Assembly (NCBI GenBank): GCA_027038175.1
Contig: JALVYB010000051.1
Location: 28,021-92,020, forward strand
Length of the DNA: 64,000 bases
Origin: a candidate division WOR-3 bacterium
GTDB lineage: Bacteria > Hydrothermota > Hydrothermia > UBA1063 > CAJXJZ01
Direction: 5' to 3'
Shown here: in pieces, positions 32,755 to 36,670 of the stretch
How positions within the stretch are numbered: the stretch's first letter is position 1
Layout of the letters: every line of letters begins with the position of its first letter
Notes under the pieces: model-generated
Seen by the model: the letters and a program-made list of their open reading frames with translations, nothing else
What the model was told of the DNA's origin: nothing
Database searches by the model: none
Position numbers and translations under genes: made by a program

Positions 32755-32949
32755 ATGAAAAGTGAATACCTTAACTTACTTATATGCCCCGAATGTGGGG
32801 GCATGCTGGCGGAGGAAGGTAAAAACAAACTGGTATGTGAGGAATGCGGCAGAAAATACCCTGTAATTGATGGTTTACCTGTTCTTCTTGAAGAAAAGGA
32901 GGCTATAAATGTATTTTATTCTTCTTTTGATAATAAGCAGTCTGATTAA
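32755..32949 (+). CDS. Trm112/YcaR-like (UPF0434) zinc-ribbon protein
   Basis: 64 aa. LICPECGGML...LVCEECGRKYPVIDGLPVLLEE is the family signature. Confidence 0.65.
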   Translation: MKSEYLNLLICPECGGMLAEEGKNKLVCEECGRKYPVIDGLPVLLEEKEAINVFYSSFDNKQSD

Positions 32950-35900
32950 CGTAAAAAGTACACCACAAGAGGATATTTACAGATTTGTTCTTGAAGATTC
33001 TTTGCATCATTACGAAAAGTATGTGTACCTGAGTTCTCCACAATTCTATGTTTTTAACAAAGCCGGTGCACCTTGTGTTCCCTATTACTCCTTCATCATT
33101 CCGGCAAAGGGCCAACTCAGCAGAATAAAAATAGTAAATGCAAAAAATGAACATATTAAAGGAGAGTTACTTCCTCTACCCACATATGGAAAAAATGGAA
33201 TGGTTGCAGGGTACTTTAAAAATGCCAACTACCCAGAATCTTTTACCCCATCCAAAATAATAAGCGTTGATACTCTTAATATAAGAGGATACAGATTTTA
33301 TAAAGTCAAAATCTATCCTCTTGCCTATCATGGCAACGACATAAACCTCTTAAAAGAAATTACATTCAGTCTTATATGGTCAAAAACAAAAAGTATAGAG
33401 GACAAAAACTTCCTGTTTAGAGGCATAACCGGTAAGCCTTACTATAGAGTGCACCAAAACAAAAGTATTAAATCCTCATCCTTCTTTGACTCTGCTCTTG
33501 TGTGGTTTAAAATCCCCATAACGAAAAGCGGAGCATACAGGATTACTTACTCAAAACTCAAAGATAAGGGGCTACTTGCAACATTCCCCATTAATGAAGT
33601 TGCACTTTATTCCAGAGGTCCCGATACTTTTAAGGCAGATTTAACGGAATCCGATTTTTATGCACCTCAAATTCCTCTTATGGTAAGTGATGAGAATAAT
33701 AATGGAATATTTGACGAAGGTGACTTTATAATTTTTTATGCAGAGGGACCCTCTACCTGGGAAAAATCAGATACAACATATGTAAATTTCCATAATCCTT
33801 ATTGTGACACTACTTTCTACTGGCTTGGCTTTGGAAAACCTGGAGATCGTTTAAAAACACTCAATTTTCAAAATGCCAGTTCAATTGATACCGCCATAGC
33901 ATTTTACCACCATGAAAAAGACATGACCAACATCGCATGGAAAGGTATATTATGGGAAGGTGAATCCGTAATTCGCTTTCAGGGGAACCCATCAGGAGAG
34001 AGTTCATTTAGTTTTGAGTTAAGTGATGTTATAAATCCGGATGCCACTCTCAGAATAAGACTTGTCGGAGGAGAAGCCATAAGGAGAACGGTCATAATAC
34101 AAACCCCATCCACTATTGACTCTTTTTCTCCAACTGGATACTTTATTATCCAAAGAACCTTATCTCCATTCAATATTCAGAACGGAACGAACCAGTTCAC
34201 CGTAAAAATACAGAGAATAGAAGGTGAGGATGACTCATACGGTGACCAGATATACCTTGACTATTACGATGTTATCTATAAAACTGGTACCTGGGGTACG
34301 GGGAACAGGGAATTCTTTGTAAAAGGTAATGGGAACTTCACTTTTTCAATAGGCACCGATGACGCAATGGTCTTTAATATAACAAATCCTTTATCACCTT
34401 ATCTCCTCTCATCACATCATTCAAACAACGCATACCTTGTTTATGACACCACAACAACACTTTCAAGGTATTATGTGGCAAGAGAGTTTTACACTCCAGA
34501 TGTAATCCTCGACCCGGAGGCAGGTAAATTGTATAGAGAGGATTTTTCTCAAACAGATATGCTTATAATAACATCAAGAGCACTCGTTCCCGCATTATGG
34601 AAATACAAATCCTACAGAGAAGCGAATTTTCCAGTATTGAAGGACAGTCTATGGGAAAAAGGTGAAGGTCACATATCTATTGTAACCGTGGAGGATATTT
34701 ACAGGGATTTTGGATATGGATTGCATGACCCTGTTGCTATAAGGAATTTTGTTTACCATGTCTACAACGCATCCATACATAATGGGCAACCAAAACTCAA
34801 ATTCCTCCTGATGGTAGGGGACGGAACGTATGATTACAGAGGAATAGAATCCAGAGAGGGGAATATTGTTCCTCCATTTGAACCTTTTGAGACTGCCGAT
34901 ATAAACGTATACGCAGAAGCAAATGAAACCTTCTATGCGGATATGACAGGTGATAATTTTCCGGATATTTTCTATGGAAGAGTCACTGCAAGGACCGAAA
35001 ACGAGGTGGCAGCCTATTTTAATAAGGTAATTGCTTATGAACAGCAGAACGCATCATCTCCATATAGACAGCGCATTTTACTTGTATCTGATGATGAAAG
35101 GGGACCTTATGGAGGGGACAGCGAGGCATCCTGGCACGTTCCCCAGGCAGAAGCCCTTTATACTACCTACACCCCCAAAAATGCTGAGAAAATCATAGTT
35201 TACGAAACAGACTATGGCAGTGCTGATAATCCAGAAGAACGCGGAAGACTTGCTAAAACAGCGCTTATAAATGCAATGAACACCGGCGCGCTTATTATGG
35301 GATTTTATGGACATAGCAATCCTGTTCAAATGACCCATGAGATGCTTTTCACAATAAACGATGTAAACCTTATAAATACACATGGGAAACCACCTTTATG
35401 CGTTATACTTACATGTAAATTTGGAGCCTTTGCAAGGCTCGAACCTCCGAGGATTATTGCAGAAGATTGGGTACTAAATCCAAAAGGCGTACTCGGTGTT
35501 ATTGCTTCTCCAAATGCCACTTTCGCCTTCTCCAATGGCACAACCGGGAGAAATATATTCGGGTTCTCCCTTGACGGCAAAGTACATCCCCTTGGGGAAG
35601 TCTCTCTGTCTGGAAGAGACCCCTCTTACTTCTTGCTTGGAGACCCCACAGCGTTTTTCTATTATCCCTTAGACGACCCTGAACTGGCATTTGATGGTAG
35701 AGACACGCTATATTCAGGAGAGTTATCGAGTGTACCTGTGTCAGGTCCATATACAGGGAAGTTTTTTGCATCAATAGTAGGAGTTCCAAAAATCAAAACT
35801 TACTACACATACCCCAACAATTACGTGCTCAGATACCATGAATCCACACCAATTTTATTCAGGGGGAGCATAAGAAAAGAAAATGACACAGCGTATTTTA

Positions 35901-36670
35901 AATTCTTCCTTCCCCTGTATGCTGACACTGGAATAATCCACCTGAATTCTTTGAGATCAAAGGATAATACACTAAATGAATCAACTGGAGAATATACCCT
36001 CGAACATGGCAGTGTGACAGGGGATATAGAAGGGCCCGAAATTGATTTAATGATAAACGATAAACCAGTAAATCCCGGTGAGGTTATAAATACTCCCCTT
36101 ACCTTCACAATAAAAGGTATTTTGAGGGACCCACACGGTATAAACCTCGAGGGGGTTAGGGGCGAAAAGGGTATTTACCTCATTCTCAACAACACGACAT
36201 ATGACCTTACACACTATTTCCAGTACAGAGAAAACTCTTATACTGAAGGGGACCTGTCTTTTACAGTCACACTTGAAAATGAGGGAGAATACGATGCCTC
36301 TCTCGTAGTATACGATAATGCTGAAAATCGCAGTCAGTTAACCTTCAAAATATATGCAGAGGAAGGCTCTCAAAAGGTTAGCAACGTGCTTATTTACCCC
36401 AATCCACTGAGAGGGGAAGGTGGTACATATATTACTTTTGAAATAGAAAAAGAAGCAAGAGTCCAGATGGCAATATATTCCATATCAGGAACTCTTGTAT
36501 ACAAAAATCACGAAAGTACATATCAAAGCGGATTTAATTCAATTTACTGGGATGGAAAAGATATGTTTGGGAATAAACCCGCAAGTGGGCTTTATATTGT
36601 AGTTTTAACCATAAATACAGATGGCAAAAAATACAGAATACGTAAAGGATTATTTATAGAGAGGAGGTAA
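32909..36670 (+). CDS. gingipain-type (C25-family) cysteine peptidase with T9SS C-terminal domain. Possible PorU-like C-terminal signal peptidase.
   Basis: 1253 aa. Signal peptide MYFILLLIISSLINV. Central LLMVGDGTYDYRG...GFYGHSNPV (His) ... LCVILTCKFGAF (Cys) resembles the C25 catalytic core. The C-terminal ~90 aa (…VQMAIYSISGTLVYKNHESTYQSGFNSIYWDGKDMFGNKPASGLYIVVLT…) is an FlgD-Ig/T9SS-CTD-like beta-sandwich. Confidence 0.5.
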   Translation: MYFILLLIISSLINVKSTPQEDIYRFVLEDSLHHYEKYVYLSSPQFYVFNKAGAPCVPYYSFIIPAKGQLSRIKIVNAKNEHIKGELLPLPTYGKNGMVAGYFKNANYPESFTPSKIISVDTLNIRGYRFYKVKIYPLAYHGNDINLLKEITFSLIWSKTKSIEDKNFLFRGITGKPYYRVHQNKSIKSSSFFDSALVWFKIPITKSGAYRITYSKLKDKGLLATFPINEVALYSRGPDTFKADLTESDFYAPQIPLMVSDENNNGIFDEGDFIIFYAEGPSTWEKSDTTYVNFHNPYCDTTFYWLGFGKPGDRLKTLNFQNASSIDTAIAFYHHEKDMTNIAWKGILWEGESVIRFQGNPSGESSFSFELSDVINPDATLRIRLVGGEAIRRTVIIQTPSTIDSFSPTGYFIIQRTLSPFNIQNGTNQFTVKIQRIEGEDDSYGDQIYLDYYDVIYKTGTWGTGNREFFVKGNGNFTFSIGTDDAMVFNITNPLSPYLLSSHHSNNAYLVYDTTTTLSRYYVAREFYTPDVILDPEAGKLYREDFSQTDMLIITSRALVPALWKYKSYREANFPVLKDSLWEKGEGHISIVTVEDIYRDFGYGLHDPVAIRNFVYHVYNASIHNGQPKLKFLLMVGDGTYDYRGIESREGNIVPPFEPFETADINVYAEANETFYADMTGDNFPDIFYGRVTARTENEVAAYFNKVIAYEQQNASSPYRQRILLVSDDERGPYGGDSEASWHVPQAEALYTTYTPKNAEKIIVYETDYGSADNPEERGRLAKTALINAMNTGALIMGFYGHSNPVQMTHEMLFTINDVNLINTHGKPPLCVILTCKFGAFARLEPPRIIAEDWVLNPKGVLGVIASPNATFAFSNGTTGRNIFGFSLDGKVHPLGEVSLSGRDPSYFLLGDPTAFFYYPLDDPELAFDGRDTLYSGELSSVPVSGPYTGKFFASIVGVPKIKTYYTYPNNYVLRYHESTPILFRGSIRKENDTAYFKFFLPLYADTGIIHLNSLRSKDNTLNESTGEYTLEHGSVTGDIEGPEIDLMINDKPVNPGEVINTPLTFTIKGILRDPHGINLEGVRGEKGIYLILNNTTYDLTHYFQYRENSYTEGDLSFTVTLENEGEYDASLVVYDNAENRSQLTFKIYAEEGSQKVSNVLIYPNPLRGEGGTYITFEIEKEARVQMAIYSISGTLVYKNHESTYQSGFNSIYWDGKDMFGNKPASGLYIVVLTINTDGKKYRIRKGLFIERR

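What the first reader, a model, noticed from the sequence alone, without database searches (positions are those of the whole stretch)
32909..36670. C25 gingipain-family protein with CTD, possibly the T9SS C-terminal signal peptidase PorU, with no adjacent PorV
The size (1,253 aa), C25-like His/Cys core (FYGHSN / ILTCKFGAF) and FlgD-Ig-like CTD match PorU better than a gingipain cargo. PorU is normally encoded beside porV, which is absent here. Its flanking genes are a Trm112-like Zn ribbon (overlapping by 41 nt) and a bactofilin. If it is PorU, the organism has a complete T9SS, and the three CTD proteases in this window are its cargo.
Basis: partly seen in the sequence, partly recalled or inferred. 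Interest (0 to 1): 0.5.

Follow-up and report, generated by a model that had tools for sequence, protein, structure and literature searches.

The report
PorU-type secretion sortase in thermophilic WOR-3
This gene most likely encodes PorU, the enzyme that clips the C-terminal export tag off proteins secreted by the type IX secretion system, here in an uncultured heat-loving WOR-3 bacterium; it is an ordinary member of a known family, but it sits in an unexplained, lineage-wide three-gene block instead of next to its usual partner gene porV.

Summary
ORF 32909-36670 (+) encodes 1253 aa, with a Shine-Dalgarno site upstream. It carries a C25 domain (His802/Cys836) and a type-A T9SS C-terminal domain (CTD). 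A Trm112/YcaR-like zinc ribbon overlaps its start by 41 nt and a bactofilin follows 3 nt downstream.

It is a PorU orthologue, not a gingipain-type cargo:
- NCBIfam PorU scores 447 bits against a cut-off of 420, nearly full length.
- The only PDB sequence hit is P. gingivalis PorU.
- An AlphaFold model (pLDDT 90) matches PorU 6ZA2 over its whole length (E 3e-52). Gingipains match only the catalytic part (E 7e-18).

The host is candidate division WOR-3 (Caldifarciminota), from hydrothermal MAGs, and the window encodes reverse gyrase.

No porV or other T9SS core gene lies in the 64 kb window or in about 176 kb of WOR-3-type DNA examined. A complete T9SS could not be tested.

Two extras emerged:
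- The Trm112-like/PorU/bactofilin triad persists down to 31% PorU identity while all other neighbours change.
- Residues about 20-160 fold like a gingipain prodomain, which P. gingivalis PorU lacks.

Only one window protein besides PorU has a threshold-passing CTD (a C11 protease). A C39-like peptidase has a degenerate one.

Verdict: new member of a known kind, modest interest.

The parts
32909..36670 (+). PorU orthologue (1253 aa): a C25-family cysteine peptidase, predicted to be the T9SS C-terminal signal peptidase/sortase.
   Evidence: ORF. NF033707 PorU scores 447 bits against a cut-off of 420, with aa 199-1241 matching profile positions 7-1085 of 1095. The only PDB sequence hit is 6ZA2 PorU. 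Foldseek against 6ZA2 gives E 3e-52 over the whole length.
32896..32902 (+). Shine-Dalgarno sequence AAGGAGG, 6 nt upstream of the ATG. It lies inside the 3' end of the upstream Trm112-like gene.
   Evidence: Read directly from the sequence.
32909..32959 (+). Hydrophobic N-terminus (MYFILLLIISSLINVKS), a probable Sec signal peptide. Its boundaries are approximate.
   Evidence: Sequence. The model places a helix at aa 2-13. No signal-peptide predictor was available.
32966..33388 (+). N-terminal domain (aa about 20-160) with the fold of a gingipain prodomain. A low-confidence linker follows (aa 161-198, nt 33389-33502).
   Evidence: AlphaFold model with pLDDT above 90 for aa 20-160 and about 50 for aa 161-200. 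The six best PDB matches are all RgpB/Kgp prodomains (E 6e-7 to 4e-6, TM about 0.5), and the next hit has E 0.24. PF08126 matches 8 of 20 family members.
34559..35650 (+). Peptidase_C25 catalytic domain (aa 551-914). The dyad is His802 (nt 35312-35314) and Cys836 (nt 35414-35416).
   Evidence: Pfam E 2.6e-58. H802 and C836 are invariant in 20 sequences and in 72 sequences. They align with the GH and TC motifs of P. gingivalis PorU.
36392..36628 (+). PorU's own type-A T9SS C-terminal domain (aa 1162-1240).
   Evidence: TIGR04183 scores 33.6 bits against 23, and FlgD_ig 28.1 against 27. The region aligns with the CTD of 6ZA2 PorU.
32755..32949 (+). Trm112/YcaR-like zinc ribbon (64 aa, CPEC...CEEC) that overlaps the PorU start by 41 nt. 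First gene of the conserved triad.
   Evidence: PF03966 E 4e-10. Orthologues overlap PorU by 4-47 nt in L001, L004, L013 and L015.
36674..37075 (+). Bactofilin (133 aa), 3 nt after the PorU stop. Third gene of the conserved triad.
   Evidence: PF04519, 86.6 bits. It is present 3-9 nt downstream of PorU in every locus that carries the WOR-3-type PorU.
37072..37833 (+). TatD-family hydrolase that overlaps the bactofilin stop. It is conserved next to the triad in most but not all relatives.
   Evidence: Assigned by orthology with L001, L004 and L013 (PF01026). RecG takes this place in L015.
25444..29415 (+). Clostripain-family (C11) peptidase with CARDB and a type-A CTD. It is the one clear candidate PorU substrate in the window.
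   Evidence: PF03415 E 1.7e-45. TIGR04183 scores 28.3 bits against 23 at aa 1253-1320. The orthologue in L001 has the same architecture.
50251..52746 (-). C39-like peptidase (831-aa ORF; public call of 807 aa) with a shortened, degenerate CTD-like tail. A possible substrate.
   Evidence: PF13529 occurs in nearly all homologues listed. Distant ones carry PF18962 and are named 'T9SS type A sorting domain-containing protein [candidate division WOR-3 bacterium]'. The tail aligns with their CTDs. The window protein itself has no CTD HMM hit.

Best explanation
The gene encodes the PorU orthologue of a thermophilic WOR-3 (Caldifarciminota) bacterium.

Proposed mechanism, by homology with P. gingivalis PorU:
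1. The protein is exported by Sec.
2. It crosses the outer membrane through a T9SS by means of its own type-A CTD, which is kept rather than cleaved.
3. It stays on the cell surface.
4. With the Cys836/His802 dyad it cleaves the type-A CTD from other T9SS cargo, such as the C11 protease encoded 3.5 kb upstream. The cleavage goes through a thioester intermediate.
5. The intermediate is resolved either by water or free amines (release) or by an amino group on a surface glycolipid (anchoring).

What is shown: family membership by sequence, by profile and by predicted fold; intact and invariant catalytic residues; its own CTD; CTD-bearing neighbours.

What is inferred: the activity, the substrates, the surface location and the existence of the rest of the T9SS.

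Additional inference: unlike P. gingivalis PorU, this long form carries an N-terminal gingipain-type prodomain joined by a flexible linker. It is therefore probably made as a zymogen held latent within the same molecule.
For: - NF033707 'T9SS sortase PorU' scores 447 bits against a cut-off of 420 and covers aa 199-1241. Relatives at 31-61% identity score 403-485 bits, also full length.
- The only PDB sequence hit at E <= 0.001 is PorU 6ZA2 (E 2e-27). No gingipain is hit.
- The AlphaFold model of aa 199-1253 has pLDDT 90.2 and pTM 0.82. Foldseek gives 6ZA2 at E 3e-52 over about 1200 aligned columns, against RgpB/Kgp at E 7e-18 to 9e-15 over roughly 510-560 aligned columns (targets of 423-453 residues).
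- The protein is collinear, segment by segment, with Flavobacterium proteins that NCBI names PorU.
- H802, C836, D728/D729 and R691 are invariant.
- It has its own type-A CTD, as PorU does (PMC10202324).
- A type-A CTD cargo lies in the window.
- The orthologue sits at a conserved genomic position across the lineage, like a core gene rather than variable cargo.
- SurA and OM-lipoprotein-type genes in the window fit a diderm cell.
- The prodomain is supported.
Against: - No porV, sprA/sov, gldK/L/M/N, porT, porP, porQ or porZ was found in the window or in about 176 kb of WOR-3-type DNA.
- The PorU model score is only just above the cut-off, and one relative (P0337, 403 bits) is below it.
- Identity to characterised PorUs is only 17-25%.
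- Public sources name the 36% relative 'C25 family cysteine peptidase' or 'T9SS type A sorting domain-containing protein', not PorU.
- No biochemical data exist for any non-Bacteroidota PorU.
- The conserved operon partners (a cytoplasmic zinc ribbon and a bactofilin) are not explained by this model.
Confidence: 0.8

Rival explanations
1. It is a PorU-derived protein whose role in WOR-3 differs from the Bacteroidota model. It would work in a functional module with the Trm112/YcaR-like zinc ribbon and the bactofilin. One version is surface processing positioned or regulated by a bactofilin scaffold. Another is a T9SS attachment step that does without PorV.
For: The triad Trm112-like/PorU/bactofilin has tight junctions (4-47 nt overlap upstream, 3-9 nt gap downstream). 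It is kept at PorU identities of 100, 61, 42, 36 and 31%, while every other flanking gene changes. In L013 and L015 the gene upstream of the triad is divergent or unrelated, so there the triad looks like an operon of its own. The bactofilin is far more conserved than PorU. No PorV lies beside PorU in any of these loci. In E. coli the PF03966 gene ycaR overlaps kdsB, an LPS gene, by 4 nt. That is a weak hint of an envelope or LPS connection.
Against: Gene order alone does not show a functional link. The two partners are predicted to be cytoplasmic, while PorU is extracellular. No paper in the library links bactofilin with T9SS mechanistically. PorV absence from the genomes is untested. PorU lacks an adjacent porV in other phyla too.
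Confidence: 0.1
2. It is an ordinary secreted C25 protease, a gingipain-like degradative enzyme exported through the T9SS as cargo, and not the signal peptidase.
For: It has the gingipain-type layout: prodomain, C25 catalytic domain, Ig-like domains and CTD. It sits in a window with other secreted peptidases. The PorU model score is marginal.
Against: The whole-length match to PorU includes the roughly 350-aa region before the catalytic domain and the roughly 250-aa region after it, which gingipains lack. Gingipains are not found at all by sequence. The gene keeps a fixed locus across deep divergence.
Confidence: 0.07
3. It is an inactive relic: a PorU homologue kept in a lineage that has lost a working T9SS.
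For: No T9SS core gene was seen in the DNA examined. The C39-like protein has a degenerate CTD.
Against: The ORF is intact at 1253 aa and the catalytic dyad is invariant in all relatives. Orthologues at 31-77% identity keep their full length. The C11 CTD passes threshold.
Confidence: 0.03

Closest known systems
[quoted passage not shown]
   Same: Both have a C25 catalytic domain with a His/Cys dyad, the same flanking beta-rich domains before and after it, and their own type-A CTD. It is the only PDB sequence hit and the best whole-length structural match. The mechanism is taken from PMC10202324 and PMC11285876.
   Different: Structure-based identity is 17%. P. gingivalis PorU begins aligning at its residue 38 with residue 198 here, so it lacks the roughly 140-aa N-terminal prodomain-like domain. 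In P. gingivalis porV lies 75 bp downstream (PMC5445135), whereas here a bactofilin follows. The latency reported for P. gingivalis is intermolecular, through a dimer hairpin (PMC10202324). Here a prodomain within the same molecule is inferred.
Long-form PorU of Flavobacterium (about 1278 aa; for example Flavobacterium sp. JLP, P0014)
   Same: The length is similar. All five segments are collinear, including about 170 N-terminal residues. NCBI names these proteins PorU.
   Different: Identity is 23-25%. The Flavobacterium locus reads gldJ-like, porU, porV, with porV 42 bp downstream. It has no Trm112-like or bactofilin neighbours.
Gingipains RgpB and Kgp (C25 cargo proteases)
   Same: They share the catalytic fold and dyad, the N-terminal prodomain fold and a CTD.
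   Different: They match only the catalytic and Ig part (roughly 510-560 aligned columns; targets of 423-453 residues; E 7e-18 against 3e-52 for PorU). They are not detected by sequence. They lack the large extra domains of PorU.
Putative PorU2 (NCBIfam NF052324)
   Same: It is a related C25/PorU-like family that matches the N-terminal two thirds of the protein.
   Different: It scores 157.7 bits against a cut-off of 450, well below threshold.
Gram-positive sortase A (functional analogue only)
   Same: It is a cysteine transpeptidase that cleaves a C-terminal sorting signal and joins the protein to a cell-surface glycopolymer through a thioester intermediate (PMC10202324).
   Different: The fold and family are unrelated. 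No sequence or structural similarity was found here.

Membership tests
T9SS sortase PorU (NCBIfam NF033707) | Full-length match to the PorU equivalog model at or above its curated cut-off. | tested here: met
   447 bits against a cut-off of 420, E 1.2e-133, aa 199-1241 matching profile positions 7-1085 of 1095. The margin is small. Relatives score 403-485 bits.
T9SS sortase PorU | C25 catalytic domain with an intact His/Cys dyad. | tested here: met
   PF01364 E 2.6e-58. H802 and C836 are invariant in 72 sequences. They align with the GH and TC motifs of P. gingivalis PorU.
T9SS sortase PorU | Multi-domain architecture of solved PorU, not merely a gingipain catalytic core. | tested here: met
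   Foldseek gives 6ZA2 at E 3e-52 over about 1200 aligned columns, with TM 0.47/0.45 because the relative domain orientations differ. Gingipains reach E 7e-18 over roughly 510-560 aligned columns (targets of 423-453 residues).
T9SS sortase PorU | Carries its own type-A CTD, so it is itself a T9SS substrate. | tested here: met
   TIGR04183 scores 33.6 bits against 23. The type-B CHU_C model is below threshold.
T9SS sortase PorU | N-terminal Sec signal peptide. | tested here: inconclusive
   A hydrophobic N-terminus is seen in the sequence, and the model places a helix at aa 2-13. No signal-peptide predictor was available, and the n-region has no basic residue.
T9SS sortase PorU | Gene adjacent to porV. 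This is typical in Bacteroidota but is not strictly defining. | tested here: not met
   No PorV lies in the window or beside any WOR-3-type PorU. Controls with porV adjacent are L008, L006 and L010. It is also absent in Fibrobacteria L005 and in L009.
T9SS sortase PorU | The same genome encodes the T9SS core (SprA/Sov, PorK/L/M/N, PorV, PorT and others). | not testable with these tools
   The source contig could not be retrieved. The PorV database search was swamped by Flavobacterium sequences. The genome and metagenome scans returned only PorU loci.
T9SS sortase PorU | Type-A CTD substrates are encoded in the same genome. | tested here: met
   The C11 peptidase at 25444-29415 scores 28.3 bits against 23 with TIGR04183. 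The C39-like peptidase has a degenerate CTD.
T9SS sortase PorU | CTD-cleaving and transpeptidase activity. | not testable with these tools
   This needs biochemistry or genetics.
Gingipain-type C25 cargo protease | Best overall similarity is to gingipains, with the architecture limited to prodomain, catalytic, Ig-like and CTD parts. | tested here: not met
   No gingipain is hit by phmmer at E <= 0.001. The structural match is partial only. Two extra large regions are shared with PorU.
Putative PorU2 (NF052324) | Score at or above the cut-off of 450 bits. | tested here: not met
   157.7 bits.

The most novel reading that the evidence does not exclude
In WOR-3/Caldifarciminota the T9SS signal peptidase may have been recruited into a conserved three-gene operon: YcaR/Trm112-like zinc ribbon, PorU, bactofilin. 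This operon would replace the usual porU-porV linkage. It would reflect a lineage-specific way of placing or controlling the cargo-attachment step, for example a bactofilin scaffold that marks secretion sites, or an attachment complex that works without PorV. In addition, long-form PorUs would be kept latent by a gingipain-type prodomain rather than by dimerisation.
Probability: 0.12. Interest if true: 0.6.

Novelty: new member of a known kind. Interest (0 to 1): 0.3.

Why it matters
Many papers still describe the T9SS as specific to Bacteroidota, while recent reviews extend it to the FCB superphylum (PMC11205867).

No paper in the searchable library mentions WOR-3 together with T9SS. Public sources give these WOR-3 proteins no name, or only generic ones.

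Calling this protein PorU has two consequences:
- It places a T9SS-type cargo-processing enzyme in a reverse-gyrase-bearing, probably thermophilic candidate phylum.
- It gives annotators a marker for secreted proteases in hydrothermal MAGs.

The practical gain is modest. The existing NCBIfam model already reaches these proteins at its threshold.

Two leads could repay follow-up. One is the conserved Trm112-like/PorU/bactofilin operon. The other is the prodomain on long-form PorUs, which suggests that latency control differs from the one structurally characterised PorU.

Tried and rejected
- Retrieving the window's own 202-kb contig by exact protein look-up failed twice. A genome-wide search for T9SS genes was therefore impossible.
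- A PorV profile search of the 5.8-billion-protein collection was swamped by Flavobacterium PorVs: 8000 candidates were scored and 120 listed. It said nothing about WOR-3.
- The single genome-contig scan and the single metagenome-contig scan with PorU returned only two WOR-3 loci and the same contig again.
- A look-up around an NCBI-annotated WOR-3 CTD protein (L012) showed no T9SS core gene.
- The promoter and terminator scan was uninformative: 30 promoter-like sites against 33 expected.
- Literature searches found no relevant paper. WOR-3 with T9SS, with type IX secretion or with reverse gyrase gave no paper at all. A six-term search in which WOR-3 was one term listed no paper containing it. 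Bactofilin with type IX secretion gave one unrelated paper. The new phylum names appear only in passing in four unrelated papers.
- The PorU structure paper (PMC8501833) is not held. The residue number Cys690 for P. gingivalis therefore rests on my memory only.
- I first considered that aa 1-198 might be a WOR-3-specific extension. I rejected this because Flavobacterium PorUs have an equivalent segment.
- I considered the TPR lipoprotein at 56782-58098 as PorW/SprE. I rejected it: 42.8 bits against a cut-off of 250, which is generic TPR similarity.
- A CTD HMM built from PorU CTDs detects the C11 tail only at E 0.06 and does not detect the C39-like tail.

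
Full report
**Observation**

The ORF 32909..36670 (+) exists exactly as described: 1253 aa with an ATG start. A strong Shine-Dalgarno sequence, AAGGAGG, lies 6 nt upstream. The quoted motifs are present: FYGHSN at aa 799-804 and ILTCKFGAF at aa 833-841.

Pfam finds Peptidase_C25 at aa 551-914 (E 2.6e-58) and a FlgD_ig-type C-terminal domain at 28.1 bits against a gathering score of 27. NCBIfam's type-A sorting-domain model TIGR04183 is passed at 33.6 bits against 23. The type-B model CHU_C is below threshold.

The upstream ORF 32755..32949 is a Trm112p/YcaR-like zinc ribbon (PF03966) that overlaps PorU by 41 nt. 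The downstream ORF 36674..37075 is a bactofilin (PF04519, 86.6 bits) that starts 3 nt after the PorU stop.

**PorU or gingipain-like cargo?**

Four independent tests favour PorU.

1. The NCBIfam equivalog model NF033707, 'type IX secretion system sortase PorU', is passed at 447 bits against a cut-off of 420. The match runs from aa 199 to 1241, covering profile positions 7-1085 of 1095. The PorU2 model fails at 158 bits against 450.
2. A phmmer search of all PDB sequences returns one protein only, P. gingivalis PorU (6ZA2, E 2e-27). No gingipain is returned.
3. An AlphaFold model of aa 199-1253, built on a 72-sequence alignment, has pLDDT 90.2 and pTM 0.82.
   - Foldseek ranks 6ZA2 first at E 3e-52, aligned over about 1200 columns.
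   - RgpB and Kgp follow at E 7e-18 to 9e-15 and cover only the catalytic and Ig part.
4. The protein is collinear, segment by segment, with about 1280-aa Flavobacterium and Bacteroidales proteins that NCBI names PorU.

His802 and Cys836 are invariant in 20- and 72-sequence alignments. They align with the GH and TC motifs of P. gingivalis PorU. The literature describes PorU as a Cys/His peptidase that cleaves type-A CTDs and transfers cargo to anionic LPS. PorU itself is a CTD protein whose CTD is retained and stays bound to PorV (PMC10202324, PMC11285876).

The pass over the model cut-off is narrow. Relatives score 403-485 bits. All matches are nevertheless full length.

**Organism**

The closest genomic matches are MAGs labelled candidate division WOR-3, from hydrothermal samples: JALSNX010000027.1 at 61% identity and JALVLE010000248.1 at 77%. 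NCBI taxonomy now calls this phylum Caldifarciminota.

The window encodes a reverse gyrase at 43297-46776 (-), with TIGR01054 at 1197 bits against a cut-off of 472. The amino-acid composition of the window's proteins (IVYWREL fraction 0.426) points to an optimum near 65 degrees C. That estimate uses a formula I recalled from Zeldovich et al. 2007, so it is rough.

None of the nine close homologues carries a name in any public source. The 36% relative is named 'C25 family cysteine peptidase [candidate division WOR-3 bacterium]' by NCBI and 'T9SS type A sorting domain-containing protein' by UniRef. No paper in the library mentions WOR-3 together with T9SS.

An exhaustive HMMER search shows a large, continuous family: 1384 representatives at E <= 1e-30. 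Intermediates at 29-36% identity fill the space between this clade and Bacteroidota.

**porV and the rest of the T9SS**

No T9SS core component is encoded in the 64 kb. This rests on Pfam/NCBIfam scans of the 31 window ORFs chosen as unknown, envelope-related or adjacent to the finding. It also rests on a local PorV HMM run on six-frame translations, built from three divergent PorVs plus Flavobacterium sequences. That HMM scores the control PorVs at 387-777 bits, and no window ORF reaches E <= 10.

No PorV lies beside PorU in any locus that carries the WOR-3-type PorU. About 176 kb was scanned in all.

Controls show how variable the linkage is:
- porV directly follows porU in Flavobacterium (L008, 42 bp), in L006/L007 and in L010.
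- porV is absent next to PorU in a Fibrobacteria MAG (L005) and in L009.

So non-adjacency is not exceptional outside Bacteroidota. Whether these genomes encode porV, sprA or gldKLMN elsewhere could not be tested. The source contig is not retrievable and the large-database PorV search was swamped.

**Cargo**

The C11 (clostripain-family) peptidase at 25444-29415 has a type-A CTD above threshold, with TIGR04183 at 28.3 bits against 23. Its orthologue occupies the same position in the 61% relative.

The 831-aa ORF at 50251-52746 (-) is a C39-like peptidase. It has no CTD HMM hit itself. Distant homologues carry PF18962 and are named T9SS type-A sorting-domain proteins of WOR-3. Its tail aligns with their CTDs, keeping the 'YD..GR' and 'SG.Y[FV]' motifs but lacking the PNP-motif region. 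The 'three CTD proteases' claim is therefore only partly borne out.

**Unexpected 1: a conserved triad**

The arrangement Trm112-like, PorU, bactofilin recurs at several PorU identities:
- 61% in L001;
- 42% in L004;
- 36% in L013/L014, from WOR-3 assembly GCA_039803545.1;
- 31% in L015.

L003 (77%) is cut upstream but has bactofilin and TatD downstream.

The junctions are always tight: a 4-47 nt overlap upstream and a 3-9 nt gap downstream. In L013 and L015 every other neighbour differs from the window. The gene upstream of the triad there is on the other strand or unrelated, so the triad behaves as a unit.

The zinc-ribbon proteins are clear orthologues and resemble E. coli YcaR. ycaR overlaps the LPS gene kdsB by 4 nt. 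The bactofilin is much more conserved than PorU. The triad is absent around PorU in Flavobacterium, Fibrobacteria and the other outgroup loci.

I have no tested explanation. Possibilities include inherited operon structure without functional meaning, co-regulation of envelope functions, and a real functional link. The only paper in the library that mentions both bactofilin and type IX secretion does not connect them.

**Unexpected 2: a prodomain**

An AlphaFold model of aa 1-205 has pLDDT above 90 for aa 20-160, followed by a low-confidence linker to aa 198. Its six best PDB matches are all gingipain prodomains: RgpB 4IEF and Kgp 5MUN, at E 6e-7 to 4e-6. The next hit has E 0.24.

Eight of 20 family members match Pfam Propeptide_C25 by sequence. 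P. gingivalis PorU has no room for this domain, because its residue 38 aligns with residue 198 here. Its latency is reported to depend on dimerisation (PMC10202324). I infer that long-form PorUs, including this one, are zymogens inhibited by their own prodomain. This is inference only.

**Verdict**

The gene is a PorU orthologue, confidence about 0.8. It is a new member of a known kind in a phylum where it had not been named. The claim of a complete T9SS remains untested. Interest is modest (0.3), raised slightly by the conserved triad and the prodomain.

Noticed in passing
window 43297-46776 (-): Reverse gyrase (TIGR01054, 1197 bits against a cut-off of 472). This thermophile marker sits in the same WOR-3 genome as PorU and CTD cargo. 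The IVYWREL fraction of the window's proteins (0.426) suggests an optimum near 65 degrees C, using a formula I recalled from memory.
   Followed up: partly
window 32755-37075; L001, L004, L013, L015: The Trm112/YcaR-like, PorU, bactofilin triad has overlapping or nearly abutting genes. It is conserved down to 31% PorU identity while all other neighbours change. Its functional meaning is unknown.
   Followed up: partly
window 32966-33388 (PorU aa about 20-160): This N-terminal domain is predicted to have the gingipain prodomain fold. It is absent from the one solved PorU (P. gingivalis) but present in long-form PorUs of Flavobacterium and others.
   Followed up: partly
window 5901-10664 (+): A sugar-modification cassette: UDP-glucose 6-dehydrogenase, a UDP-sugar SDR of the ArnA C-terminal/UXS type, a small ArnE/F-like protein (60 bits, below its cut-off), a GT2 glycosyltransferase, and a 490-aa protein with no family hit, which I guess is a membrane protein. 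The layout resembles an Arn-type polyprenyl-phosphate sugar or lipid A modification pathway.
   Followed up: no
window 29808-29977 (+) and 29391-29816 (-): tRNA-Ala and tRNA-Leu lie just upstream of the long same-strand gene array 29984-42029 that contains PorU. The 141-aa ORF on the opposite strand overlaps tRNA-Ala and is probably spurious.
   Followed up: partly
window 46799-48370 (+): An AAA_15/AAA_21 ATPase (361 aa) is followed immediately by a 161-aa protein with no family match. This might be a defence-type ATPase pair inserted next to the reverse gyrase.
   Followed up: no
window 1207-4443 (-) and 16839-20138 (-): Two large signalling proteins of about 1080-1100 aa. Each combines a nucleotide cyclase domain (Guanylate_cyc or GGDEF) with AAA_16 and TPR regions. 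An HD-GYP/GAF protein lies at 55662-56819.
   Followed up: no
L005, L006, L013, L015: Amidase_3 (AmiC-type) and/or DUF4837 genes recur within a few kb of PorU in unrelated lineages: Fibrobacteria, the organism of L006, and two loci with the WOR-3-type PorU. SpoIID and SLT/LysM genes are also nearby in some. This may be a loose association of PorU with cell-wall remodelling genes.
   Followed up: no
L006 14028-16391: This PorV homologue is 787 aa long because a Reg_prop beta-propeller-like insertion of about 450 aa sits between the conserved N-terminal PorV motif and the barrel.
   Followed up: no
window 50251-52746 (-): The public gene call for this C39-like peptidase is 807 aa (P0237) and starts 24 codons downstream of the longest ORF. 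In the hydrothermal WOR-3 clade its CTD-like tail has lost the PNP-motif segment found in more distant homologues.
   Followed up: partly
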